The notes beneath the pieces are model-generated. The model was not told where the DNA came from, did no database searches, and saw nothing but the letters and a program-made list of their open reading frames with translations. A program made the position numbers and the translations under genes. Source: Paraglomus brasilianum (lineage: Eukaryota). From it: DNA of 54,212 nt. This document shows, in pieces, positions 14,803 to 52,478 of the stretch (the first letter of the stretch is position 1; each line of letters starts with the position of its first letter). The DNA lies in contig CAJVPI010000100.1 of the NCBI GenBank assembly GCA_910592345.1, forward strand, positions 1 through 54,212. The letters are read 5' to 3'.

Positions 14803-17346
14803 TAGCTTGTTGGTTTTTCAATTCTTTTTAAACCTTCCTTTGTTGGTTCGGGGATTTTTAATATACGGTTCAGGAAATTCAAAGTATTAGCTTAACTATT
14901 TAAAGAACGGCATCACATCTGTCACAATATCAAGTGAGCGATCAGCTGAATAAGTGCATGTGGTTCTCGTTAACGTGATATTATTTGTCACATGTGCATG
15001 TGCATAGAGTGTGGAGAGAGAAATAGTGACCGATTGTGTATCATGACAAGGAATCTTCACAACGACTTATAACAAGTGTGTGTTTTGCGTCACCTGCATC
15101 CAATCGCCAGTTTGCCATATTACCAATGCTCACATTGATATCTTTTATCTTTCGTCAATATCTCTCTCGTTTTGCTTTTCCCATGTGTTGTGATTGGTGA
15201 TGATGTTGTGCAAGGCAACATTAGTAACATTTGCTATATTACGGATAAAAAAAAATATTCATCCTGAGAACGGCTATAAGCCCTTACTGGCCAATTATTT
15301 CACTGGCTAATCGAACCATCTATTTCTCCAATCACAAAGATCGTTGTTATTATATTTGGAGTTTGTTGTGGTTTTGTTTTGTTTTTTGTTCTTTTTTTTT
15401 GTGTGTATAGATAAATATTTGATAAATACTTAATTTAATGCGCACAAACAAAGTGTTATTGGCAGTCCATTATATTGTTACTATTGGTATACGCCACCTC
15501 TCAATGACTATGATTCTAGTACCAAATTCCTTGTTCTAACGTCCTTATCATGTTCTTATTGTCGCACTTATGTCTCGATTTACATGAACTATCTACTAGT
15601 TTACTGTTTTGGGCGACAAAACTCGTGCGATTTACTGTAATTATCAACACTATAGTTGAATAGCTACTGAATCATATGTAAATACTGGTCAACAAGAGTT
15701 GGGTTTCTCGTACGATAACCAAACCATTATACAACCATTCCCGCTTAAATACGCTGTGCTCCCACCTTATCTAATCTCGATTATGTATCAATTTCTCGCA
15801 CAAATAACACATTCAATCAACGCGTATATTGATGCACAAATGGACATAGGCTCATTCGGGGTCATCTTTTCAATTACAGCCAATAAGATACGGTCTCTAG
15901 TATTTAACCAGCAGTAGCACCGTCGCTGTGTAAGCAAGTCCCACCAACGTTCTAGATGGAGAATAAAGAAATCAATAAAAATCAAACAACAATGACGGGA
16001 AAATCTGACATATAGTGCGATTCCGGTAATATACAATGATAATGATAATGATATTTACTTATTTCATTTTCCGTTATCATTGATGAATAATTGAATATCA
16101 TCGTATACAAGGGTATTGACCACGTGGGATAACCTTACATTAAATGCTTGATTGGTCAGTTTAGAGTATCAGAAATATATGCTAGCTACAATAAATATAA
16201 ATTAGGACGATAACTGGTCATGCCATGAAAGAAAAATTAGAATATCAAATTGCTTCCTTTTCGACTGCGAATTGGTATGATACTAACCATTAGAAAACAT
16301 GCGTCAACAGATACCATGCATTACATAAATATGAATTATTAATAGGGTCATATAATCGATCATTAATTCCAGCAGCAAGTTTGCCGTTGGGACACACACA
16401 TCAACAAAGTTCTATATATGGATTTTTCAATACCAGGCAACAACAATTTGTCTTAAAGAATAGGATCAATTGAACGATCGGGGGAGCGGGGAGGGGGAAG
16501 TGCAGACATTATTAATCGGTATATATGTTAGCGAAGCTCGTTACACATTTTATATTAATATTATAAATTTTGTGTTAGCCTTATTTTGAGTCTAATAGAT
16601 ATTCGGCATTTTATACTGTATGTGTAACTATACAGCGCCACAGAGATGCAAGGTATATAAAATACCTTGGTTCTGCAAATTAAGTAAATTTTAACATTTA
16701 TTAAATTCATTGCTTGCTTGTATTATTGGAGAGCAGCCTCTCTCTCCAAAAAAACAACTCGCATTTATTACAATTAGAGCAAATTAATATGAACAATATT
16801 TCAGTTTATAATCGATACATTCTACTGAACGTAAAGAGTAACCGACAAAAAATTAAGCAGACAACGCAGCTGGGCGATTTATCGACAGAGTCGAGCACCT
16901 TTCTGTGATCGCGGTCTGTATCAATTATACGACATATTATACGCATTTATACGCATTCATACGAATAAAGTATCACTAAATATATACGCGATATACAATT
17001 ATGGAGATTACCGACCTGATCAGGTAATTCAAACTATATTATTATTATATGTGCATGTATATAATGTGCATAGAGAGCAAGGAGAACGAACAATAGAACG
17101 TATCTATGACAAAGAAGAGGAAACTGTGTCCCGTAGTTATAGGTACGGCAAGAATATTTTGTCGGTAATGACTGCAGCAGTAATTAGCCCACCGCACGCT
17201 AACACACTTGGATAATATTACCAATCAACAACGAATATTCCTCTTCTAATTCATTTAATTTCTTCTTTACTTCGAAACACAACACACAAAAACCCAGCCA
17301 AGGCACAGAACAACAGAACCAACCATCTCGACAATATCTGGCACAA

Positions 17347-19497
17347 ATGCATCATTCGTCCTCGTTTTTACAACCTATGTCGTCCTTTAACTCACATTTA
17401 CAATTAGAATCTAATCATATGAACTCTACACCGTTCAGGAAGGACTCTACACGTAGGAAATCACTATCGGAATTATCCACACATATGCAGATGCAGTCTT
17501 ACTATCAACAACAGTATCAACAAACACCCTCATCCCTTTCATCTTCATCACTCCTGTCTCCACAACATATGCCGCCATCATCACCAACCCACTTGCCACC
17601 GATTTATCCACATCTTTCTGCGTCTCCCTCCTCCATAACGCATACTCCCTCACAGCTTCATCATTCACCATCCATTCATACATCAATCCACCACACACAA
17701 GCACCTAGTCGTAGATTAGCGCATATACGCAGCGAACAAAAAAGAAGAGAAAATATCAACAGTGGTTTTGAAGAATTAAAGAATATCGTTCCGACTTGTC
17801 GTGGATGTGCAGATTCGAAAGCGATCATTTTGAAAAAAGGTAAGATGAAGGGGTTGAATAAGGAGAGCAATATATATACACGTGTGTATGCGTGTGTGTG
17901 TGCGTGTGTGTGCGTGTGTGTGCGTGTGTGTGTGTGTGCGTGTGCGTGCATCGAGTATATACAAGTGCATTGATTCAGTGGTATCCGGTAAGCTTTGTTA
18001 TGACAAATACTATCTTCACTATTAGTGATTTCATGATGATATGGTCTGTATCTCTGACAAACGTTATTATCATAAGGATATGGTTACTATTATATTGCTA
18101 CACTATTCTCATATCGCAAATCTCATCTTATCTATGATTACTTTTTTTCCTTGTTTTCCTTACAGGTCTAATGCAATATCTGCGCATCTTATTTCAATCT
18201 TTTCCCGTCTCATTCCTCTCTGATCATCTCGCATGTAATGTGTGTGGGTAAAAAAAAAAAAGGCAAACAACAAATGCGCTGTTTAACAAGCAAAGCATGA
18301 AAAGACAATCGTGCATGTGTGCAGTGAGGAGCTGCTACAAGAATGGTAGGCAAATATTATGTAGTAGTATATATTAACGTATACGATTATAATAACATCA
18401 TAGATTAATTATGTCATTTCACTATTTAGATTTTGTAAAACAGACACGTGGCGTGGGAGTATGGGCTGGGGCTGAACATTTTGTGTTGGGGGGGGGGGTG
18501 AGTCTTCTTCCCACCGTCGGATATTTTTTTTTCTCCATGGAACCTAGATGCATATCAGGAACAAAACAATCGAAAGGGAATGATCAGGGGTAAAAGATGA
18601 AGGAATGAAAATGACAAGATCAATGCTATTGCCACAAAAGGAAACATGACGAAATCGAGGGCTCCGTCAGGATTACGTTGGTTTGCGCACAAAAAAAAAA
18701 CAAACCACACACATACACACATAACACGCATATTTGCACGTTAACCAACCATTGATCCAAAGCTTTTTCTTACTAATTCATTCTTTGATCTCATCTCACT
18801 TCAAATCTTCCATACTCAATTACAAGCCGTACACTACATTCAGGCTTTAGAAACCGAAGTTCGCAAGCTCAAATCACCTTCAGTACACGCAGATCATCCT
18901 TCACTAGAATCGCCTTCGCTTCCACCTGTACCGATCGCATCTGCCAGTAGTCTTCATGAACCGCAATCATCGCACTTATCGTCATCTAGCAGAAGCAATC
19001 CATCGCATTCGACATATGGTGTCAATGACATGAGAGCACGAACGGAAGTGAGGAAACATGATGACGCGCATAATAATTGCATGTACAACGAAGGGCCAAA
19101 CAACTTGGACAAGTACTCTCAAGTACGCTCACCCTTACCGGGGGTGAGACAGTCACTACCTCCGGTTCGTAGTTTCTCCCAACCATCAATAAACGCATTC
19201 AACCTTGAACAGGAAGGAAATTATAACTACAGATTTGAACACTTGAAAAGAACAAGCACCGAATGGAAAAATGATTGGGATGGGTGTCAGGCGTATGGGA
19301 ATGGTTATGCAACAAATGGTTACATGTCAACAGCGTTGGTAGGTTCGAGCAGAAATGAATACGGACTGAATGTAATCGACAATGCAAGGAGAGACAGGGT
19401 CTACGAGGAAGGGAATGAAAGAGATGAAAGAGTAGGAATAGGTGTAGGAAGAGATATCAAGTTTGAGATGGTAGGACATTCGTATAGAATGGATTAA
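17347..19497 (+). CDS. bHLH transcription factor (Max/Mlx/Ino4-like, E-box class), about 387 aa. Exons 17347-17839 and 18827-19497.
   Basis: RRLAHIRSEQKRRENINSGFEELKNIVP...SKAIILKK joins across a phase-1 intron (GTAAGA donor at 17840, TACTAAT branch at about 18771, AAG acceptor at 18826) to AVHYIQALETEVRKLK, completing helix 2. Exon 2 is in frame with ORF 19030..19497. Confidence 0.9.
17881..17948. repeat. (GT/GC)n alternating purine-pyrimidine microsatellite in the bHLH intron
   Basis: cgtgtgtatgcgtgtgtgtgtgcgtgtg...; the source of several spurious ORFs. Confidence 0.95.
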
Positions 19498-32571: not shown

Positions 32572-35500
32572 ATGGGGTCAAATCCCATAAACCAGAGTCA
32601 TGGCAGACAGGTAAGAGATAATTAATTAAAGACGATATGAAGATACCCGTCTTATCAATGCCCCCCCCGTATATAAGTGGTGCATATATGCAAAGTGACG
32701 AAACTTGCCCGCATTTATTCACATACATAAACATATCCACTTTCCCCTCCGCGACGTCTTTCTTATTCAACGTCAATGCTTACGCATGCTTTCCTCTATC
32801 CATTAGCTCACCTTCTCCACCCAAACATTGATTTTTGGAGACTGTCTTGGCAGGGGAGCATTTGGCTCTGTCTACAAGGCACTGAATCTGCAGACTGGAC
32901 AAGCAGTTGCTGTAAAGCAGATAAAACTTACAAATATTCCCAACTCGGAGCTTGACGTTATCATGGTGAGTATATCATCGCATTATTTGTAATTTGTCTA
33001 ACTGATATTCATTGTTAATTATTGAGAGAATTTGATTGGTGACTCACATGCATGCATCTTTTGCATTACGGATTAGATGGAAATTGATCTATTGAGTAAT
33101 CTAAATGTAAGTCGAAAAGAGAAAAGTTTGATCTTATCTGGTCATTCATTGCCCCTACTTATCCCATTTCAATAACTTTTCGGTCATTTCTGCCAGCATC
33201 CCAACATTGTCAAATACATTGGTTCGGTCAAAAACGATGACAATTTGTATATTATTCTGGAGTAAGTATTCTCTCCTTTTCCTTCCGTCTTGTTTAGTTG
33301 GGAAAAATACCAAAACACACATGCAAATTACCTACTTTCGGATCATCGTGAGACTTTGCATCGCCCATCATGGTTAGATTTGATTTCAACCAATCGGCGA
33401 AGAGCTATTAAATTTAGTCATGTGATTGTGACTAATATTCACACTAACCATGCGCTGTCACACATTATTCATTATTACATACGTATTAAAAAAAACTCTA
33501 CTCATATTTCACCCCCATATCCACATTCTTTAGATTTTGCGAGAATGGCTCTCTTCATACCATGTGCAAAAAGTTTGGCAAGTTTCCCGAAGACTTGATT
33601 GCACGTTACATCGGTCAAGTGCTTCAAGGCTTAATATATCTTCACGACCAAGGTGTAATCCATCGTGACATCAAAGGAGCAAATATTCTCACCACTACGG
33701 AAGGTACCGTCAAATTAGCCGATTTCGGTGTTGCCACCAAGACCAGCGCGCTCAACGATTATGCTGCAGTTGGCTCACCATATTGGATGGCACCTGAAAT
33801 AATCGAATTATCCGGGGCGACGACTGCATCGGACATATGGAGTGTAGGTTGTGTGGTAATCGAATTGCTCGAAGGAAAGCCACCCTATTATTATCTAGAG
33901 CCATATCCCGCCCTCTTCAGAATGGTACAAGATGAGCATCCTCCACTACCAGAGAGTGCTTCGCCGGCTGTTAAGGACTTTTTAAAGCAATGTTTTCAAA
34001 AGGATGCTAACTTGCGTGTTTCTGCCAAGAAACTACTCAAACATTCATGGATTGCCAATGCGAACAAGAAATACACTGACAGCATGCGCCAGATCATAAC
34101 GCAACCTGGTTACTATGAGGATGTGCAACGTGTGCAGGAATGGAATGAACTCATTCAATCTCCATCCGATTCACATGAACCCGTATTAGTAACGAGACCA
34201 CGAGCCGATTCATTTCCTTCGAAGCTACCATTATCACCTTTTCTAAATCAGCACTACAACAATCAAAACCTCGCTGTTACCGGTTCATCGACTTCTATGC
34301 AATCTTTATCTGACTACGACTCGGATGAATGGGGAACAAGTATACCATCTCGTCGAAATAGGAGAAAAATAATGGAGCCAGAGCCTGAGGGTGAGGAGAA
34401 TTGGGATGATGTCCAATTTGATTCGATGATGATGAATAAAATGTTCGGGAGGAGCGAGCCACTTGACTATGTTGGAACTATTGAGGAAGAAGTTGAGTAC
34501 GAGGATGACAACCGCACTATTCGAGTATCTGGCTTTGCACCACAGCAAGAACAGGTCTTTACAGGGAGTGGATCGAATAAAGGTAAAGAAAGAGCTGACG
34601 ATAGTCAGCCTGAATCATCGTCTATGCAAAGAACGTTGATCGAAGGCCATTCTCGACCAAGAGCACGTTCGCAACAGCACCGCAAGAGGCGATCATGGCT
34701 AGGTAGAAAGCACGAATACGGTAAAAAGTTGTCTGGTAGGCCGACGTCAGCCCCGGTTTCATCGGCTTCCAACGATCTTCCCGCAAACATGAAAGACCCC
34801 TTTTCGCAACCTATCTTCCCGGATGGGCATACAATAATCCTCCTCGAGAAGCCTCTGCCGCCACTCCCACCCATCAAAGTAATTCAACCCCCACCTCAGT
34901 CATCAGATGAGTCTCATTATGTAACACCACCAATATCTCCCCCCATGTCGCCAATTATTGAAAACCAAACGACTGCAATCCCCAATATTACGGCAGAACC
35001 ATCTGGTTCACGAAGTTCACAAAAGCTTCGTTTGTATCAAGAAGTTGATGAAGACTCCTATGACGATGCTTTTCGAGATGATCAAAATCTCAAATTAAAC
35101 ATGCAACATTCGAACAAGAGTTGGTTGAGAGATGATCTTAGTGACGAGGATGATCCTTTTATGGAAATTAGCGAGGAATTTGGAGAAATGGATCTCAAGG
35201 CTAATATCGCAAGAGATAAATACGCGAGGGCGTGTTCTCAACTTGCTGTGTTAATAAATCAGTTGCAACCAATTACCGCAGAGGACAGTTTGCTCAACAG
35301 TTGTATTCAGTTGATGGATCTGTTAACAGAGTATAAAGAACTGAAGAATCACTTGATAATAGTTCATGGAGTAATCCCAATATTAGAGACACTCGAATTA
35401 TGTTCGTCTGAGCGCGTTGTGGTGAGGCTGCTGAAGATTGTTAACTTTATTATCGAAGATAATAAGAACTTGCGAGAGAAGCTGTGTGTAGTTGGAGGTG

Positions 35501-36957
35501 TTCCCGTTATCATGAACTTTGCTTCGAGGCCTTACTCGTACGAAATAAGACGAGAAGCTGCTATATTTATCAAACGAATGTGCTATACATCGACACTGAC
35601 TCTACAAATGTTTATTTCTTGTCGAGGATTAAAAAAGTTGGTGGGCTTTCTAAACGAGGCTTACGAACAACACAAGGAATTAGTATGGATTGGTGTCAAT
35701 TGTGTTTGGAATGTATTCCAGCTGCCGGGGCCAACAACAAAGAACGACTTTTGTAGATTATTCGCCAAGAGTTCGCTGCTCGATCCATTATCGGTGACTC
35801 TAGAACACGCCCTTTATGATTCCAACCCTTCAGTGACGAAATATATTGATCGGATTGTAAATATCTTCCTATTATTCTCACAAACCGAAGCTGAATCAAT
35901 GGTTAATGGCAGAGTGATTTCTCGATTATTCGATATTTTGAATAAACTACCGCCTAATCTACACGTAGTTATGTTAAAGTGTATTAAGAATCTTTCTATG
36001 AATTCTAATACTCTTGAAGCATTGGAGAATGTCGACGCTATCGAAGTGCTTACAGAAATACTGGTTAAAAGCGCTCCCACCTACTCACCGGAAATATCCA
36101 ACCAAGTACTCAATACAATGTACAATTTATGCAGAATAAACAAGACCAGGCAAGAGAAAGGAGCCAGAGCTGGTATAGTGCCTCATCTAATGTATTTCGT
36201 CGAGAAGCGGATGACACTTAAGCAGTTTGCACTTCCAATACTGTTTGATATGGCACATGCAGGCAGAACATGCCGTAACATATTGTGGCAGCACAATGGA
36301 CTTCACTTTTATCTATCATTGTTGACCGATCCATATTGGCAAGTTAATGCAATGGAGTCTATATTGACATGGCTGCAAGAAGAGCCAGCAAGAGTGGAGC
36401 CAATACTACTGGAACGGAAAAGCTACGAGTTTATAATAAGAGCGTTCATCGGTGCCAAGGCTAATTCATTTGAGAATATACTAGAACCATTGTATATGAT
36501 CACACGCCTATCTAATCAATTAACAATTGCATTAGCCAGGCCAAACTTCTTTCGTCATCTTCTTAATCGTTTGAATCATCCGAAAGCCGTTGCACGAGTT
36601 AATTTGCTGAGAATATTAAAGACAATATGTGAAGCTGATCATTCAGTAGTAGCCAAATATGGACTTTTCGACGTGGTAACAAGAGTAAGCCAAGAAGATG
36701 GCTCCATGTTAGTCAGAGAGCTCGCAAGAGAAGTGCTCGAACAAGCGTATTTCGTCCCTTCAGCGACAACCTCTCGTTCGTCCTTGATTCCTACTACGCC
36801 TGCACCCGAAACCATTAAAGAGGAGGATGAACAACAGGGAAATATTGGAATTGGTGGAGCTAGCGTAGGTGATACTGATGATCCACAACTGGATATTCCA
36901 CCTGAACAACGCGACTTGCCAAAATCTGACCATGCAGGAAGCGGAAATGGCAGTTGA
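32572..36957 (+). CDS. CDC15: Cdc15/Cdc7/SepH-family STE-group kinase (mitotic exit / septation network) with a C-terminal ARM-like helical region, about 1238 aa. Exons 32572-32610, 32807-32965, 33077-33106, 33197-33261, 33534-36957.
   Basis: The spliced product reads MGSNPINQSHGRQ|LTFSTQTLIFGDCLGRGAFGSVYKALN...VAVKQI...VIM|MEIDLLSNLN|HPNIVKY...YIILE|FCENGSLH...HRDIKGANIL...DFG...GSPYWMAPE. All four introns are GT-AG and phase-consistent. C-terminal blocks TLTLQMFISCRGL and LKQFALPILFDMAHAG match SepH/Cdc7 as recalled. Confidence 0.92.
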
Positions 36958-37737
36958 CTAGTTGCGGTTCAAGTGGAAAACACGCAGACGGAAAGTCTTT
37001 CTCCTACTGATAACACTCTTCGTCGCCATCGACCATCTACATCTTCACTCTCCCCTCTCCCGCAGCGTCAACAGTTTCCCCGTCGTCCATTATCGTCACC
37101 ATCAACCTTAACGCCAGAGATTACCCGTCTTATATATTCTCCGCGACCACCATCCCCTAGACCACGGCCAACTTCTATGTCATCAAGTCCACATACTCGT
37201 CCAGCATCCACATCATCAACTTATACTCACACCCGACCAGTTTCTACATCCTCATCCTTGACACCTCAAACGAGACCTTCGTCGTCTTCGTCGTCGTACT
37301 CGTTAGGACCTTTGTATCCTTTGCCTCCTAAACAACATGCTAACGTTACGGATTCTCAAGGGAGAACAGCAGCAAGTGGGAATATAGCTACCTCTACAAA
37401 TTCCTCAACGACCTCGGTTGATTTTCCATACGAGAGTATTAGAAAGAGACAAGACAGTCGGACAATTAAAAAATTAACTCTGCAGAAATCCTTTGAACTG
37501 CAGAAGCTCAGTGGTCAAAATAACGATACTGAAATTGAGGCCGAGGGTGACACCGAGGGTGCAGATGTTGTTAATAAGATGAATTCAGCGTCATCGAGCC
37601 ATAGCGGCGAAAGCGATGACGGCCATAAGAATACTACAACAGATGCTAACAACACGAGAGGGAGGAGACGATCGGTACCTCAACGGATTATGGGATGGGT
37701 TAAACATGTGGTGCGACGATCAGACAAAAAGCGGTGA
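36958..37737 (+). CDS. In-frame C-terminal extension of the kinase beyond TGA 36955-36957 (259 codons plus stop), a predicted stop-codon readthrough region
   Basis: ...GGC AGT TGA CTA GTT GCG GTT CAA GTG GAA... stays in the kinase frame with no stop until 37735-37737. The listed ORF at 36973 starts at GTG, not ATG. Confidence 0.7.
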   Translation, partial: LVAVQVENTQTESLSPTDNTLRRHRPSTSSLSPLPQRQQFPRRPLSSPSTLTPEITRLIYSPRPPSPRPRPTSMSSSPHTRPASTSSTYTHTRPVSTSSSLTPQTRPSSSSSSYSLGPLYPLPPKQHANVTDSQGRTAASGNIATSTNSSTTSVDFPYESIRKRQDSRTIKKLTLQKSFELQKLSGQNNDTEIEAEGDTEGADVVNKMNSASSSHSGESDDGHKNTTTDANNTRGRRRSVPQRIMGWVKHVVRRSDKKR

Positions 37738-40170
37738 AGAGAATTGGGATATATATATTTATGGGAGAGCAGTAAATATAATGTAAACTTGGCGATCTTG
37801 ATTTCTTATTCCGACTACGTACTATTGCCGTTATTTCTATGTCGCGTAGTGTCTTTGAGATTAGCATTTGGGAATTAGATGCTATATATTTATTATCATA
37901 TTTCATTTACTTGGCGACTTAAATGCGGACAATGTATAACGATAATCTTACATAAGCGCGCTAATTACACGAGAGTGTTATTCTATTCTGTATTTGTTTT
38001 CCACTTGAACCATTGTAATCATGACAATAATATTCATTTATTCATTCATTATACTCTATTGTAAATACAGTATCATCCGAAAGTCATTTAATTCATCCAT
38101 TCATTCATCCAATCATTCGTGTCCTCCTTCTTTAATTTTTTAATGTACATTTATCCATTTATTTTCAATTAGTTGGATTAGACTAGAACTAGATGGAATA
38201 AAGGAGATATAAAAAAACCCATTAAAGAGAAATTGGGGGTGAGGAACGTTGTGAATTAAAGAGTTGTATGGCACATCAATAACTTGGGTTCTATCGAACG
38301 AAGGCCATAGTTTGTATCACATAATCACTATAACCGCCAAATCGACAAATGGAAGACCAATTTTATCTGTCGAGACCATCATTAGAATATGGTGTATTCC
38401 ATTAAATTATGAACGCGACTACGTCAAACTTTTCGAAAGGTCAAGGATTTGAAAAACGAAACCGAAATAATCTCGCCTTTTACTTTAGCCAAATGGCAAA
38501 GAAACTGTAAATATTAATATAGAAAGTAAAATAAGAGCGATTACGGAGTATGTAGCAAATTTATAGATGAGCTAGTACGTTTATTCGGTAATAAAGACAA
38601 TTATGGTTCAGGATGTTCGATGAATTAAAATCATTAAAATCGAACACGTCTATCTCAATCTGGAAGAATACGATAAAGAATTCTAAAAATCGTTCGTGCT
38701 GAGCAAGCGGTTATTACAAAAAGCATTGAATAGTTCGTGTGGCCCACAAATTCTGTCGCACAACAGGCCTCGATCAACGTTGCATACATTTTATTAAGTG
38801 AATATCGCTTATTATCTTACTTGAAATGGTATTGGAAATAGGATTCTCCGTCATTACTCTTATCAATTTAAATCCCCACATTGCGCAATGCGGTAACCGG
38901 GAAAATTGATAAGTGCGGAAGTACAATATGGGAAAGAAGAAGCTTTGAGGAATTAATTTTAGCCAGAATAATGAGATTGGCCGATATGCTCAAGAAATGT
39001 GAGGGGGGGTGGGATTACTGACGTAAATAACCGGTATTGTATCAGGTAATTTGGCCAGAGATTTCGAGACTAAAATATTTGAACATACTGATAACATACT
39101 GAGAACTCATTCATCCACACGTTGGCTTAAACCTAAAATATTTACTAAGAAAACTTAAAAGTTAGCAAGAGTCACATTATCCGATGACTATGATAAAATT
39201 TAGTTGTAAAAAAATCAGCCAGCAAGATATTCTCACAGTATATTAATATTTTGTATTTAACGTTAAAATTAGTAAAGCAAACTTTTAAGTCTACATGTGT
39301 GATTTAAACACAACTATGCTACATATTATTATTATTGACCAACATTAATAACCATTTGGCTGATGCGTTTGAGTATTGTCTACAATAATAGTTAACAAAT
39401 AACTTGCTACATATGCTCTGTTGTTTCATACACATATGTGGTATTACAATAATATTAATTTTCGAGCAATTTTTTTGGTACATTCCAACTGGCACGCAAA
39501 TCTCAATACTAAATGAAAATAAAGTAGATAGAAAAGTCTCCAGACATTTTTGTAGGTGACATTTACATTCGGTTGGTCGTAAATGCGCGTGTTGATGTAC
39601 CAATTAATATTTAGTAAGCCACCCTTTGCCAATAATGCAAGTTTTGCGCCCTTATTAGTACACGCTCTAAAGAACAATAGCAACTAGCTAATTAGACAGT
39701 GCGTCGGTCTAGAGACATACTATCATCTGACAGTATCTAATTTTAATTAGTAAAATGCTTTAAGTTATTAATCACTTGTTGCATAACATCTCTTATAGAG
39801 TTTATTTATTTACTAACAAGTCAAATTCGTCCCATGACAAAATGCTCTTTATGAGAGATTATTCATTTATAAAGGATTTTTTTATGGAGATTCGGCTGTA
39901 CAGTAAAAGGCGTAGAATCATAATTAACAATATTAATCTAAACAACCATTGCTTTCCAAAATTTGCTATATTGTTAAAAAATAATTATTTGCCAGATACT
40001 CTACCTACGCAAACGTCACCGACTACCCTTAAAAAAAAATTTTTTTTTTCGTATAATGAATAATTCAAATGCCATACAATTTTAGCTGTACTTGCGTTTC
40101 TTTTAACCTGTAAATTTGCAAAATTTTATTGCACATTAATACTAATATTGAGATTATTTATACCCGGTTT

Positions 40171-44470: not shown

Positions 44471-45683
44471 CCCACTATTTTTCAACAACTTTATCTTTCC
44501 CCGATTTGATTGCGCCCAAACAGCATCTGGAATATAGATTCGATGTTGTACCTGCGTTACATATGCTCGCGTGAGGGTCACACAAGGCTTTCAATAGAAA
44601 GAAAAGTAGTGGGAAATTTGCGTAAAAGTCGGAATGCGGATGCACGGAATAATTAAGAGCTATCTCCTCTGACTCTAAAGATTGGTGTTTGTTCATCTAT
44701 TGTTGATCATACTACTGCCTCACATTGAAATATATTATTCATAGAGGGCTGACGACAATCCCTGTCAAGCACGTTGATCTTTGCCTCTTTCGCATGTTTG
44801 CAACTTTTGGGGAATTATTATTCCCATACATTAATCGAATAAGACGCATACATAAACTGTGGTGTAAAGAAGAAAGAACATTCTTCCAAGACCATCGGTG
44901 ATAATTGGATTGTTTTTGTATTTGTGATTTGATACCCGTATTAGTATGTCCACCACCTATATATCATACAAAGACAACAGCCGCCAAGAAAACAAGACAT
45001 ATATTATTAATAGTAATAGTAATAATAGAATAGAATAGAATAACAACACATACCAAAGTGCCCCGTGCTTCATATTTATTACTGTCCTCCCTCCAATCGC
45101 CTGTGCAACTTTCCTTTACTTAGTAATTATACGGTTGGGGTGTGGAGAAGGGGTAACCTGTCGGACTATGAGTTGCCTTTGGCATAGAATATATTACTGT
45201 ACTTGATGTTATAGAAACTTTGAGTGGTACTTGCTATCACCGTATCACAAATTAAATTGACTTCTGCTATATAAAAAATATTAAGAAACCTACTGTATAC
45301 ATGCGCAGTATATCAAGTATTGCATATAAAAAGAATACCCCCATCTCATCACAGGTGATATTAGGAAATTATTCAGTGACAATAGGAAATTTATTTAACA
45401 GGAAAACTCCGATCACTCGAGCAAAATAGCAATAAAGGAAAAAGTACAAATACAATATATACATAGCATTTGACAGCAATAAAACGCCTTCTCAACGACA
45501 ACCTTTTTATAACCGTCATAAAAAATACAGCCGTTTATACAAGCGTTGTGAACCTTTAGTAACCACTTTACAATACCCACTCCACTTGACAACGCTACTC
45601 ACCACATTGCTCACCAATTGCTCTCCATATTATACCAGCATTACTAACAATACCACCAATACCGACAGCAATACCAAATAGCA

Positions 45684-46982
45684 ATGCCTACAGTTCTTAT
45701 TCCTAAACCACTACCCCACTCTTACCCGCTACATCTCTCTTACTCACTCTCACATTCTCGCCACATACACCAGCCCATAACCTTTCCTCTCGCCTCTCTC
45801 CCCTTTGACGTCCTAACCCACATCCTTTCGTTTGCCGTAAACCCTTCTTCTTCTTCACCAGCCGTATCTTCCTCGCTTGCATTGGTTTCTCGAACATTTT
45901 TCTATGCATCGATTCCTCACATCTGGAATCATATTTATATTCAAGAACCAACCTACAAAATACTGTTCTCGATATTACATACACCAGTAGAAAAGTTAAT
46001 GTACGATTACAGAAAGTTGGTGAAAAGCGTAACTGTGTGTCCGGTATCAATATCACGAATGAAGCCGGGCGGATTGATAGGTGTATTGGAAATGGTCAAC
46101 GAAGTATTGACTGAGGTTAGAGAAATAAATGTAGAGGACAAATTGAGCTTCTGTCATGTGTGCCATGTCGGTGGCGAAGCTACTGCGCAGGAAGTAGGCT
46201 CTTGTTTAATACCAGCGAAACCTCTCTTATCATTGAGGCTTGATTCCGATCATACTTCTTTCAGCGACGATTTATTATGCATGATATCGTCTTCATTAAC
46301 CTCATTGAAGAAACTGTCTTTGAATGGTATAAACTTTACGGACGAAGGAATAATAGAATACGCCATTCCAGCTGTGAGTAGGACGTTGGAAGAAATTAAC
46401 ATTGGAGTCGGAATAAGTGGTAAAGCTATAATCACCGGAAGAAGCGTAGTGGAATTATTGTCGAGTTGCTATAAATTAAGGAGCATGACGCTCGAGGGAT
46501 GTGATTTGACAGATCAAGACTTTTTTATCGATGCTCTTCCGCAATGTAACTTGACATATCTCTACATTGGGAAAACCAAAACTCCCTTCTCGTCATTCTC
46601 GCTCCAGTCTCTACTTTCCACATGCTACTCTTCCCTGCAGACTCTCATACTCGACATTGACCATATTTCTCCAATTGTCCTGCTCGACATTATCATTCCT
46701 CTTTACCGCAAGTCGAATTTACACTCTCTGCATCTCATCTCGGAATCATGGACACATTGGATTGCACACTACCCTAACCCAAAGAACGAACACGAAAGGA
46801 GAGCAAAGGAAGCCATGTGGAGATGGAAATTGAAGGCGTATTGGGGTTTATCGTATGAAATGATTAGAATGGTAGCTGAAGAGGTTAGAACTTTGCGCGT
46901 ATTTAGTATATTGGGCGAAAACCAATTGAAAAGGAACGAGGCAGAAGCAATAGGAGGACGGGCAATCAAGGGAAGCTGGTAA
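45684..46982 (+). CDS. F-box / leucine-rich-repeat (RNI-like) protein, 432 aa, single exon
   Basis: F-box-like LASLPFDVLTHILSF...LALVSRTFFYASIPHIW, followed by LRR-like units (LTSLKKLSLNGINFTDEGI, CYKLRSMTLEGCDLTD, LQTLILD). Confidence 0.82.
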   Translation: MPTVLIPKPLPHSYPLHLSYSLSHSRHIHQPITFPLASLPFDVLTHILSFAVNPSSSSPAVSSSLALVSRTFFYASIPHIWNHIYIQEPTYKILFSILHTPVEKLMYDYRKLVKSVTVCPVSISRMKPGGLIGVLEMVNEVLTEVREINVEDKLSFCHVCHVGGEATAQEVGSCLIPAKPLLSLRLDSDHTSFSDDLLCMISSSLTSLKKLSLNGINFTDEGIIEYAIPAVSRTLEEINIGVGISGKAIITGRSVVELLSSCYKLRSMTLEGCDLTDQDFFIDALPQCNLTYLYIGKTKTPFSSFSLQSLLSTCYSSLQTLILDIDHISPIVLLDIIIPLYRKSNLHSLHLISESWTHWIAHYPNPKNEHERRAKEAMWRWKLKAYWGLSYEMIRMVAEEVRTLRVFSILGENQLKRNEAEAIGGRAIKGSW

Positions 46983-50920: not shown

Positions 50921-52478
50921 TCAACCTGAATCACCACCTAAAAGTGTCAAGATGGCAATAAAAAGATTTACTATATCCAAATACAAGTCAATTGTACCCA
51001 AGATGTATTCTAATCAATTATAACAGTGGTTAATCAGTTTTAATAATGATTGTACTTGTTACTTTCATAAACAAATAACTCTTATACTGACCTTCTGGAC
51101 TCAGTCTGTTGAATATCTCATACGTGTCATAAATTATATAGCCACAAAATAGCAGGGCTGAGAATCCGGCAATGGCAATATCAAATCCTCTATTAAATGG
51201 AAATAACCAGCCAACAATGCCAGCGAGTATTACCACCCAAAGGCCGGCATACAAATATGGGCCCCATGAAGAAAAGTCGATCTTTGACTGAAGCGTGAAT
51301 AACACAAGAGCAGCAAAGACACCGAGTGTGATTAAGAATGCTTGCAACACAACTTTTCCACTGTACACGGACACTGTATAATATTAAAAAAAAAAAAAAT
51401 AAGAAAGTCGCATCCTGGGTGGGATATAAAGATATGTACTACTCACCTATTGTTCCTACTCCATACGATAGTGCTAGCGTGAATAGAGCCAACAAAATGA
51501 TATTCAATGGGAAGCTCTTTCTCTTCCAAATCAAAAATAGGAGCACGATCAAAGAAAGTGCCCAAGATACATAGAATATCCATAAACTATTAATTTTTGG
51601 AGTAAAATTTTCATAGGTTACAAACGACCAAATCAATGTTATCATGTTATCCCATTTTGATACTCAACTGGGTTTTCACAAAATTATGGACTACTGTGTG
51701 ATTCATAAACCATAGAGATATTCCAACTGTCACAGCCAATTGTGCAGCAAGGAGAAAGTATACCTTTCGTACAAAAGCTGACAAAGCAATCATATTCAGT
51801 ACGAACGTAAGTACAAACCAATAACTATAACAAAATTCTCGGGGTAATATCCAGGTCAAAATGTTCGTGCCAATTTCCGGGTAATATCTGTTGTTCTTCC
51901 CAAAATACTTTCATAAACTCACCCATACGGATCTGGCTGTCCGTCTGCAAACTATGAAGTCCCCTGTAAACGATCCCCTCATCTCCAATGTCAATAACAG
52001 TGTCATCTGGCGGATCACTTGGTCTGACTTTTGTCGTGCTTCCAACAATTGCAGGCTTTCTTACGGTCTCTGTTCCACTGCCGCTTCCACTTCCACTTTC
52101 TATGCCACCGTACACTGGAGGCGGTGGCCATTTTTCATACTGCAAATCTGTTACAGAATTTCCGATTCCAGAGCTTTGCGTATCAGCTCGAAATGTGTCC
52201 ATGTGGTAAGCAGAATTGGGTTGCTCGTGTGAAGATGGCGGATAAGGTTGTGGGAATGATGGGTTGGCATCGTCAGTTTCGGCATTTTCCCGATCTACGT
52301 TACTATGTCTCCAAGACGACGCCAGTTGTCTATTGACAGGCTCGGCATTCACAAAAGGATATGTTATAAAGGCCGACGACCATCGTTCATTGTTATTATC
52401 GTTGTCTCCTTTATTCTCATGGTCAGAATTGTGCACTGTTGACCCTTCAGAATCGTTATGTGTTGAACTTTGGCTCAT
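50921..52478 (-). CDS. BXI1: Bax inhibitor-1 / Lifeguard (TMBIM, Bxi1-like) membrane protein, about 391 aa. Exons 52478-51923, 51777-51669, 51586-51447, 51373-51092, 51009-50921.
   Basis: IRMAFVRKVY..L..QL, PLNIILLALFTL, VLQAFLIT, FTLQSKIDF, LFCGYIIYDT, SPEEYI...LYLDIVNLF. Intron phases are consistent and the exons total 1176 nt. Confidence 0.9.

What the first reader, a model, noticed from the sequence alone, without database searches (positions are those of the whole stretch)
36955..37737. Probable programmed stop-codon readthrough (UGA-CUAG) giving the Cdc15/SepH kinase a 260-aa C-terminal extension
Seen: the kinase ORF ends TGA CTA G (36955-36961), and the identical frame stays open for 259 codons to TGA at 37735-37737. 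That length is far beyond chance for AT-rich DNA, where intergenic ORFs here rarely exceed 100 aa. The region has coding-like composition and no ATG of its own near the start. Known: UGA followed by CUA(G) is the best-characterised leaky termination context in animals and fungi. Inference: the gene makes two isoforms, about 1238 aa and about 1498 aa. I know of no described readthrough in a MEN/SIN upstream kinase. Splicing could instead remove the stop in frame, via GTAGGT 36865..CAG 36987 (123 nt) or GTGATA 36869..TAG 36961 (93 nt). A sequencing error or A-to-I editing (UGA to UGG) is also possible.
Basis: partly seen in the sequence, partly recalled or inferred. Interest (0 to 1): 0.92.

Follow-up and report, generated by a model that had tools for sequence, protein, structure and literature searches.

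The report
Ancient leaky stop in mycorrhizal kinase
In arbuscular mycorrhizal fungi the gene for the kinase at the top of the cell-division (septation) cascade keeps an in-frame stop codon with a known "leaky" context, followed by a conserved 260-codon reading frame, so ribosomes likely read through it part of the time and make a second, longer kinase that gene catalogues either miss or fake with predicted introns.

Summary
Confirmed and strengthened. TGA-CTAG (36955-36961) ends a SepH/Cdc7/Cdc15 kinase (1238 aa); 259 sense codons follow (1498 aa if read through). Spliced RNA contigs of 4 of 4 runs (3 studies) cross the stop unspliced and unedited, and a full-length spliced cDNA of a relative keeps it. 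The extension is under purifying selection (pN/pS 0.25, p 1e-6; 1.2 after the second stop). All 3 true relatives found as DNA carry AGT-TGA-CTAG, one of them Glomeraceae-like, from the other side of the Glomeromycota tree; the 36 nt around the stop are the best-conserved DNA between them (29/36). Fourteen Glomeromycota proteins end at this same serine, while long public models skip it by mutually inconsistent introns. Two extension motifs recur in all main Glomeromycota groups and in 0 of 93 other fungal homologues. Best reading: programmed UGA-CU(AG) readthrough, likely older than 400 million years (0.8). Readthrough itself is not measured, and rare splicing is not excluded. No paper found in 10 searches; the scan's notes hold only the known JNK3 case on other DNA.

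The parts
32572..36957 (+). SepH/Cdc7/Cdc15-type kinase gene, 5 exons, 1238 aa to the first stop (kinase domain, disordered linker, ARM repeats, 85-residue acidic tail ending GSGNGS)
   Evidence: RNA joints; Pkinase E 1.5e-49; ARM_ARMC5 below cut-off; named SepH/MEN-kinase homologues
36946..36981 (+). Nucleotide block around the first stop, conserved beyond protein need: ..GGY AGT TGA CTA G.. GCG GTT C.. GTG .AA AAC
   Evidence: 29 of 36 identical to L007; flanks 15/45 and 7/36; best ungapped 36-mer between window 36701-37800 and L007
36955..36961 (+). UGA-CUAG leaky-stop context
   Evidence: Present in window, L001, L011, L007 and in RNA contigs of X5, X6, X9, X12
36958..37737 (+). 259-codon extension, Ser/Thr/Pro/Arg-rich, predicted disordered, ending at TGA 37735-37737
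   Evidence: pN/pS 0.25 vs L011, +9 nt in-frame indel; pLDDT under 50; no Pfam hit
37423..37476 (+). Extension motif 1, FPYxxIR[KR]R..(S)R[KT] (FPYESIRKRQDSRTIKKL)
   Evidence: Found in Glomerales, Diversisporales, Entrophospora, Ambispora and Geosiphon models; 0 of 93 non-Glomeromycota homologues
37684..37734 (+). Extension motif 2, terminal basic/hydrophobic helix (QRIMGWVKHVVRR); preceded by CxCxxC in 7 of 15 relatives examined but not in the window
   Evidence: only predicted helix of the extension, pLDDT about 55
37738..38219 (+). True 3' UTR (frameshifting indels, no codon bias), AATAAA at 38197
   Evidence: a contig end cannot fix the poly(A) site

Best explanation
The spliced mRNA of this Glomeromycota SepH/Cdc7-type kinase carries an in-frame UGA-CUAG followed by a conserved 259-codon frame, and ribosomes likely read through that stop part of the time, giving a major 1238-aa kinase and a predicted minor 1498-aa form. 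Shown: stop and context in mature mRNA, purifying selection on the extension, conservation of stop position, context and two extension motifs across Glomeromycota. Inferred from published work on the same context (PMC4207609, PMC4132726): UGA followed by CU weakens termination so that a near-cognate tRNA inserts a residue; no RNA structure is needed and none was found. Inferred, weaker (about 0.45 given readthrough): the disordered tail with its basic FPYxxIRKR motif and terminal basic helix acts as an address tag that moves a fraction of the kinase to another site (membrane/cortex or nucleus), letting a largely non-septate fungus keep two pools of its septation kinase from one gene; a dosage or degron role as in Dbf2 is the next most likely.
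For: (1) RNA: 4 of 4 runs laid, 3 studies, have a contig bridging 36955 with no joint; every other letter of those four contigs (2, 10, 1 and 3) is accounted for away from the stop; the same runs show joints at upstream introns, and depth in intron 4 is near zero (X5 0.19 vs 35-85), so these are mature mRNA. (2) L011's 5135-nt contig has 3984 nt before the stop and encodes P0002 (1241 aa, 3723 nt) without interruption, so it is a spliced cDNA that keeps TGA-CTAG and the extension. (3) Window vs L011 extension: 29 synonymous, 21 non-synonymous changes, 32 of 50 at third positions, pN/pS 0.25, p 1e-6, like the kinase linker (0.22); after the second stop 1.2 with frameshifting indels. (4) A scan by the extension's protein motif only, blind to the stop, gave 14 stretches: 11 chance matches, 3 true relatives, and 3 of 3 have AGT TGA CTA G in frame 123-158 codons upstream. 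L007 is 28% GC and its extension is closest to Funneliformis and Rhizophagus (51-62%); the tree puts the window with Ambispora/Geosiphon (98/94) and those genera in the other main branch (100/100). (5) An RNA contig of X20 with a Rhizophagus clarus-like upstream end aligns to L007 up to TGA CT and goes on in frame as C ATG GAA GTG CGA AAT CAC: the CU core stays while the TAG that could act as splice acceptor is lost. (6) 14 fetched Glomeromycota-type proteins end in Ser 67-85 residues after the ARM end (P0001, P0002, P0147, P0007, P0014, P0017, P0018, P0022, six Rhizophagus models); of 15 listed members of the R. irregularis cluster (19 in all) 6 stop there and 9 bypass it by 4 different junctions. 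The public model matching the window (P0145) skips 36869-36973 and a second stop-free stretch, both contradicted by the RNA contigs. Extension-only ORFs are called separately in several datasets (P0122, P0140, P0143, P0149-P0152).
Against: No ribosome profiling, peptide or reporter data: readthrough is inferred. Contigs drop rare variants, so a minor spliced form would be missed; donor-like GTAGGT/GTGATA sites 90 and 86 nt upstream are kept in L011, and the TAG of TGACTAG is a possible acceptor in window, L011 and L007. Five of 9 long R. irregularis models and one R. clarus model share one junction (KTSV|SR), and I could not see their RNA support. Stop context was read directly in only 4 loci, 3 of them closely related; the X20 context rests on one contig of depth 2.4 whose aligned letters were not printed, and it is UGA-CUC, not CUAG. 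For Ambispora, Geosiphon and Entrophospora only long models are on hand, so the stop there is unverified. One X9 contig (depth 3.5) has a 2-nt deletion at 37502 in the extension. Window vs L001 has too few changes to show selection (p 0.48). The targeting role is weak: the window lacks the CxCxxC seen in 7 of 15 relatives, and the terminal helix is among the two most amphipathic windows in only 3 of 15.
Confidence: 0.8

Rival explanations
1. Regulated alternative splicing: the stop lies in a mostly retained intron, and a minor spliced mRNA makes the long kinase.
For: In-frame GT..AG pairs span the stop (123, 93, 105 nt); donor-like sites kept in L011; TGAC+TAG resembles branch point plus acceptor and is kept in L007; many public models splice here. 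Fungi use both splicing and readthrough for C-terminal extensions (PMC4207609, passage).
Against: No joint in 4 of 4 RNA runs or in the L011 cDNA; candidate introns are 47-48% GC against 32-40% for the four real ones; model junctions differ within one species; the acceptor TAG is absent in the X20 contig, which also reads unspliced through the commonest modelled donor; the codons right after the stop (L-x-A-V, V-x-N) are conserved in frame.
Confidence: 0.12
2. Stage-specific A-to-I editing turns UGA into UGI (Trp), as stop-loss editing does for Dbf2 in Sordariomycetes.
For: Precedent in the same signalling cascade (PMC13123824, abstract and passages); an unsampled stage could hide it.
Against: No A>G at 36957 in the four bridging RNA contigs; the published cases use UAG in a hairpin in sexual tissue of Sordariomycetes, whereas here the stop is UGA with no significant structure (z from -1.0 to +0.9); editing would not explain a conserved CU after the stop.
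Confidence: 0.03
3. The extension is a separate small protein, made by reinitiation or from its own transcript.
For: Gene callers list it alone (P0122, P0149, P0143); the X20 contig has an ATG two codons after the stop.
Against: No ATG until codon 74 in the window; none near the stop in L011 or L007; the frame is the kinase's own in every locus; single contigs span both parts.
Confidence: 0.03
4. Sequencing error, a young nonsense allele, selenocysteine or a changed genetic code.
For: A single assembly can carry an error; some early-branching fungi use selenocysteine (10.1101/314781, passages).
Against: Same stop in three independent assemblies and four RNA runs; shared across the deepest Glomeromycota split; TGA ends the extension in window, L001, L011 and L007; no SECIS hit in 36700-38600; the site is in a disordered tail, not a redox centre; none of the five Sec-using species named in that preprint is a Glomeromycota.
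Confidence: 0.02

Closest known systems
UGA-CUAG readthrough in vertebrate MAPK10 (JNK3), AQP4, OPRK1, OPRL1 (PMC4132726)
   Same: Identical 7-nt context, conserved stop and last sense codon, nucleotide conservation over about 12-25 nt after the stop, no conserved RNA structure; MAPK10 is also a kinase.
   Different: Those extensions are about 14-35 residues; this one is 217-262 in the loci read. Different kingdom and gene, so independent origin is likely. Readthrough not yet measured here.
UGA-CU(A) readthrough in fungi: Ustilago Tpi1, Art1, Rpe1 (PMC4207609)
   Same: Same core context shown sufficient in a fungus; two isoforms from one mRNA.
   Different: There the short tail is a peroxisomal PTS1 on a metabolic enzyme; here no PTS1, a long disordered tail, a signalling kinase, and a lineage (Glomeromycota) not named in the passages read.
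Dbf2 stop-loss A-to-I editing in Fusarium and other Sordariomycetes (PMC13123824)
   Same: A MEN/SIN kinase gains a disordered C-terminal extension beyond a conserved stop.
   Different: Terminal kinase, UAG, RNA editing, sexual stage, short destabilising tail; here upstream kinase, UGA-CUAG, no editing seen, long tail with conserved motifs.
SepH / Cdc7 / Cdc15 kinases of the septation initiation and mitotic exit networks
   Same: N-terminal kinase domain plus ARM repeats; 44-52% identity in the ARM region to Dikarya and Mortierella homologues, about 60% to Glomeromycota ones.
   Different: Stop-separated extension with motifs found only in Glomeromycota among the homologues fetched.

Membership tests
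Programmed UGA-CU(AG) stop-codon readthrough | UGA followed by CUA(G) in the mRNA | tested here: met
Programmed UGA-CU(AG) stop-codon readthrough | Stop not removed by splicing or editing | tested here: met
   Met for the dominant form in 4 of 4 RNA runs and the L011 cDNA; rare forms cannot be seen in contigs
Programmed UGA-CU(AG) stop-codon readthrough | In-frame extension with protein-coding evolution up to a second stop | tested here: met
   pN/pS 0.25, p 1e-6, then 1.2 beyond the second stop; conserved motifs
Programmed UGA-CU(AG) stop-codon readthrough | Stop identity and 3' context conserved in orthologues | tested here: met
   3 of 3 loci with CTAG; one low-depth contig likely UGA-CUC; Archaeosporales and Diversisporales DNA not seen
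Programmed UGA-CU(AG) stop-codon readthrough | Measured readthrough (reporter, ribosome profiling or peptides) | not testable with these tools
   No such data available here
Readthrough-derived peroxisomal isoforms | Extension ends in a PTS1 (SKL-like) | tested here: not met
   Ends DKKR (window), DKKH (L001, L011), NKST (L007), DKRQ (P0152)
A-to-I stop-loss editing | A-to-G difference between DNA and RNA at the stop; UAG in a hairpin | tested here: not met
   unsampled stages not excluded
Selenoprotein | SECIS in the 3' UTR; UGA aligned to catalytic Cys | tested here: not met
   Only a sub-threshold snoRNA match, E 0.82; site lies in a disordered tail; Sec machinery not searchable, no genome held
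SepH/Cdc7/Cdc15 kinases | N-terminal Ser/Thr kinase plus C-terminal ARM repeats, grouping with named SepH/MEN kinases | tested here: met
SepH/Cdc7/Cdc15 kinases | Binds Spg1/Tem1 and signals to Sid1 or Dbf2-Mob1 (recalled from general knowledge and the PMC13123824 passage) | not tested
   No binding or functional test made

The most novel reading that the evidence does not exclude
The common ancestor of arbuscular mycorrhizal fungi placed a localisation or control module of its septation kinase behind a leaky UGA, and the switch has been kept for over 400 million years: readthrough level, possibly changed by stage or by host conditions, sets how much kinase carries the tail and so where or whether these multinucleate fungi make septa or divide nuclei. 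It would be the first programmed readthrough described in Glomeromycota, among the oldest and longest in fungi, and a sign that more such genes are hidden behind falsely predicted introns in their annotations.
Probability: 0.4. Interest if true: 0.92.

Novelty: new member of a known kind. Interest (0 to 1): 0.8.

Why it matters
Conserved readthrough in fungi is known mostly as a way to add short peroxisomal tags. A 260-residue, phylum-wide extension on the upstream septation kinase would extend it to cell-cycle signalling in the most widespread plant symbionts, which grow as mostly non-septate multinucleate tubes and whose control of nuclear division and septation is poorly understood. It also shows that public models of this gene in Rhizophagus, Gigaspora, Funneliformis and others are probably wrong at this point, and it gives a cheap genome-wide test: look for TGA-CT inside unsupported in-frame predicted introns in these genomes. 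Existing R. irregularis RNA and proteome data could test the claim directly.

Tried and rejected
No whole genome was held, so genome-wide stop-context statistics and a search for Sec machinery were not possible. RNA structure 3' of the stop: none beyond shuffles in window, L011, L007 at 45-200 nt (z -1.02 to +0.92). Rfam: nothing real. Pfam on the extension: none. phmmer of the extension over 1.84 billion representatives: 2 close relatives and one chance hit, P0153, a repeated unrelated protein with FPYPAIRFK. Profile searches with the extension alignment found 4 short and 3 long proteins, all Glomeromycota-like; they missed known long relatives, so they say little about absence. 11 of 14 pattern matches were chance. 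Laying four metatranscriptomes on L007 gave one contig in 1 of 4 runs; the blanks are no evidence. AlphaFold of ARM plus read-through tail showed no confident docking of the tail; this is no evidence against binding. ESM Atlas did not answer. The X9 joint 33106-33534 probably holds exon 4 between its sides and was not taken as exon skipping. No complex prediction was run. Supplements of the papers were not opened; gene-level splice support in PMC10234402 or lists of stop-loss genes in PMC13123824 could bear on the splicing and editing rivals.

Full report
Observation. The window reads GGC AGT TGA CTA GTT at 36949-36963, and the frame stays open for 259 codons to TGA 37735-37737. Chance is excluded: P about 5e-8 from local non-coding stop frequency, 0 of 20000 shuffles open. 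The gene starts at ATG 32572, has four introns and gives 1238 aa to the first stop and 1498 aa to the second. It has a kinase domain (Pfam E 1.5e-49) and an ARM solenoid. Its best homologues are Glomeromycota proteins at about 60% identity, some named cytokinesis protein sepH. The ARM tree (29 rows chosen by me from the 120 listed hits) places it with Ambispora and Geosiphon (98/94), opposite Glomerales, Diversisporales and Entrophospora (100/100), inside a Glomeromycota clade (100/99).

The stop is in the mRNA. Of 24 runs listed I laid four RNA-type runs on 32700-38300. All four show joints at upstream introns, and depth inside intron 4 is near zero. Each has a contig bridging the stop: X5 35983-37253, X6 36328-37072, X9 36828-37072, X12 36770-37484. 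Their other letters number 2, 10, 1 and 3, and all appear in the variant table away from the stop. No joint lies near the stop. X5 contigs overlap on to 38219, 480 nt past the second stop. The output cut 209 variant rows and 75 contig rows, and contigs hide rare forms. Independently, locus L011 comes from a 5135-nt contig with 3984 nt before the stop that encodes P0002 (1241 aa) uninterrupted from exon 1, so it is spliced cDNA of a relative; it keeps TGA CTAG and a 262-codon extension.

The extension evolves as protein. Window against L011: 29 synonymous and 21 non-synonymous differences (pN/pS 0.25, binomial p 1e-6), one 9-nt insertion; beyond the second stop pN/pS 1.2 and indels of 1, 29, 10, 11, 1, 2, 2 and 4 nt. 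Against L001 there are too few changes to tell (p 0.48). In RNA contigs the extension has indels of +9 and -3, and one of -2 in a contig of depth 3.5. Two motifs recur: FPYxxIR[KR]R and a terminal basic helix (IMGWVKHVV, VLGILKKRV, VFGWLKRRV, VVKWVKSKL), in Rhizophagus, Funneliformis, Gigasporaceae, Entrophospora, Ambispora and Geosiphon, and in 0 of 93 non-Glomeromycota homologues fetched. The rest is predicted disordered.

The stop is old. A metagenome scan with the FPY motif alone returned 14 stretches; 11 were chance and 3 were relatives, all with AGT TGA CTA G in frame upstream. L007 (28% GC) is Glomeraceae-like by its extension and by its DDGS end. Between it and the window the block -9..+26 is 29 of 36 identical, flanks 15 of 45 and 7 of 36, and it is the best ungapped 36-mer in the whole region, better than the DNA of the FPY motif. 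Laying four metatranscriptomes on L007 caught one contig (X20, depth 2.4) whose upstream end reads FKTFDFEKTS as in R. clarus; it aligns up to TGA CT and continues C ATG GAA GTG CGA AAT CAC, in frame with the modelled Rhizophagus extension. The aligned letters were not printed, so UGA-CUC there is inferred. At protein level 14 fetched proteins end at the same Ser, among them models labelled Gigaspora margarita, Glomus cerebriforme, Acaulospora morrowiae and Rhizophagus. The Gigaspora-Rhizophagus split is dated 580-408 Ma (PMC12592215, passage), and the window's lineage splits no later in my tree.

Annotation hides it. Of 15 listed members of the R. irregularis cluster, 6 end at the stop and 9 pass it by 4 different junctions; G. 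margarita and F. geosporum each have two different models. P0145, labelled Paraglomus brasilianum by its source, equals the window's translation except that it skips 36869-36973 and a second, stop-free stretch of the extension; the RNA contigs show neither. Five R. irregularis models share one junction, and at least one annotation of this species used long RNA reads (PMC10234402, passages), so real low-level splicing in Rhizophagus is not excluded; the X20 contig reads unspliced through that donor.

Mechanism. UGA followed by CU is sufficient for readthrough in Ustilago and HeLa cells (PMC4207609, passages); UGA-CUAG with about 12 further nucleotides gives efficient readthrough in four mammalian genes without RNA structure (PMC4132726, passages). 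The pattern here matches: fixed UGA, CU(AG), fixed last sense codon, about 25 conserved nucleotides downstream, no structure. I infer a major short kinase and a minor long one (0.8). For the role of the tail I favour an address tag, because only two short basic motifs are conserved in a disordered chain and 7 of 15 relatives have CxCxxC before the terminal helix (lipid modification of such cysteines is recalled knowledge); the window lacks those cysteines, so this step is weak. A dosage role, as shown for the edited Dbf2 tail (PMC13123824, abstract and passages), is the alternative. Rivals: minor splicing 0.12, editing 0.03, separate protein 0.03, error/Sec/code 0.02.

Novelty. Ten full-text searches (terms pairing readthrough or read-through with Rhizophagus, arbuscular mycorrhizal, Glomeromycota, SepH, Cdc15, UGA CUAG) listed no report of readthrough in this kinase or in Glomeromycota genes; I judged most from listings and abstract starts, and subscription papers are not covered. 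I read passages of PMC4207609, PMC4132726, PMC13123824 (also abstract), PMC10234402, PMC12592215 and 10.1101/314781; no supplements. The scan's own notes hold only vertebrate JNK3 cases. Verdict: a real, conserved, apparently undescribed member of a known recoding class, unusual in age, length and host gene; interest 0.8.

Noticed in passing
P0019, P0020, P0021, P0023 (Gigasporaceae): A second SepH paralogue that ends 15-25 residues after the ARM repeats, with no acidic tail and no extension motif in the model; a gene duplicate may stand in for the short isoform there.
   Followed up: partly
window 37253: One X5 contig leaves the window sequence here with 255 or more unlike letters; chimera, shared word or unknown alternative 3' end.
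   Followed up: no
window 36854: All four RNA runs read A where the window has G (Gly to Asp); allele or assembly difference.
   Followed up: no
window 17203-19497 (+): bHLH transcription-factor gene (HLH E 3.5e-9, INO4-like weakly), at least two exons.
   Followed up: no
window 45648-46982 (+): 444-codon F-box/LRR-like ORF, both Pfam hits below cut-off.
   Followed up: no
window 51825-52478 (-): 217-codon ORF starting with Met, no credible Pfam hit.
   Followed up: no
P0152: Extension-only ORF 64-67% identical to the window's extension, from a further relative whose stop context was not fetched.
   Followed up: no
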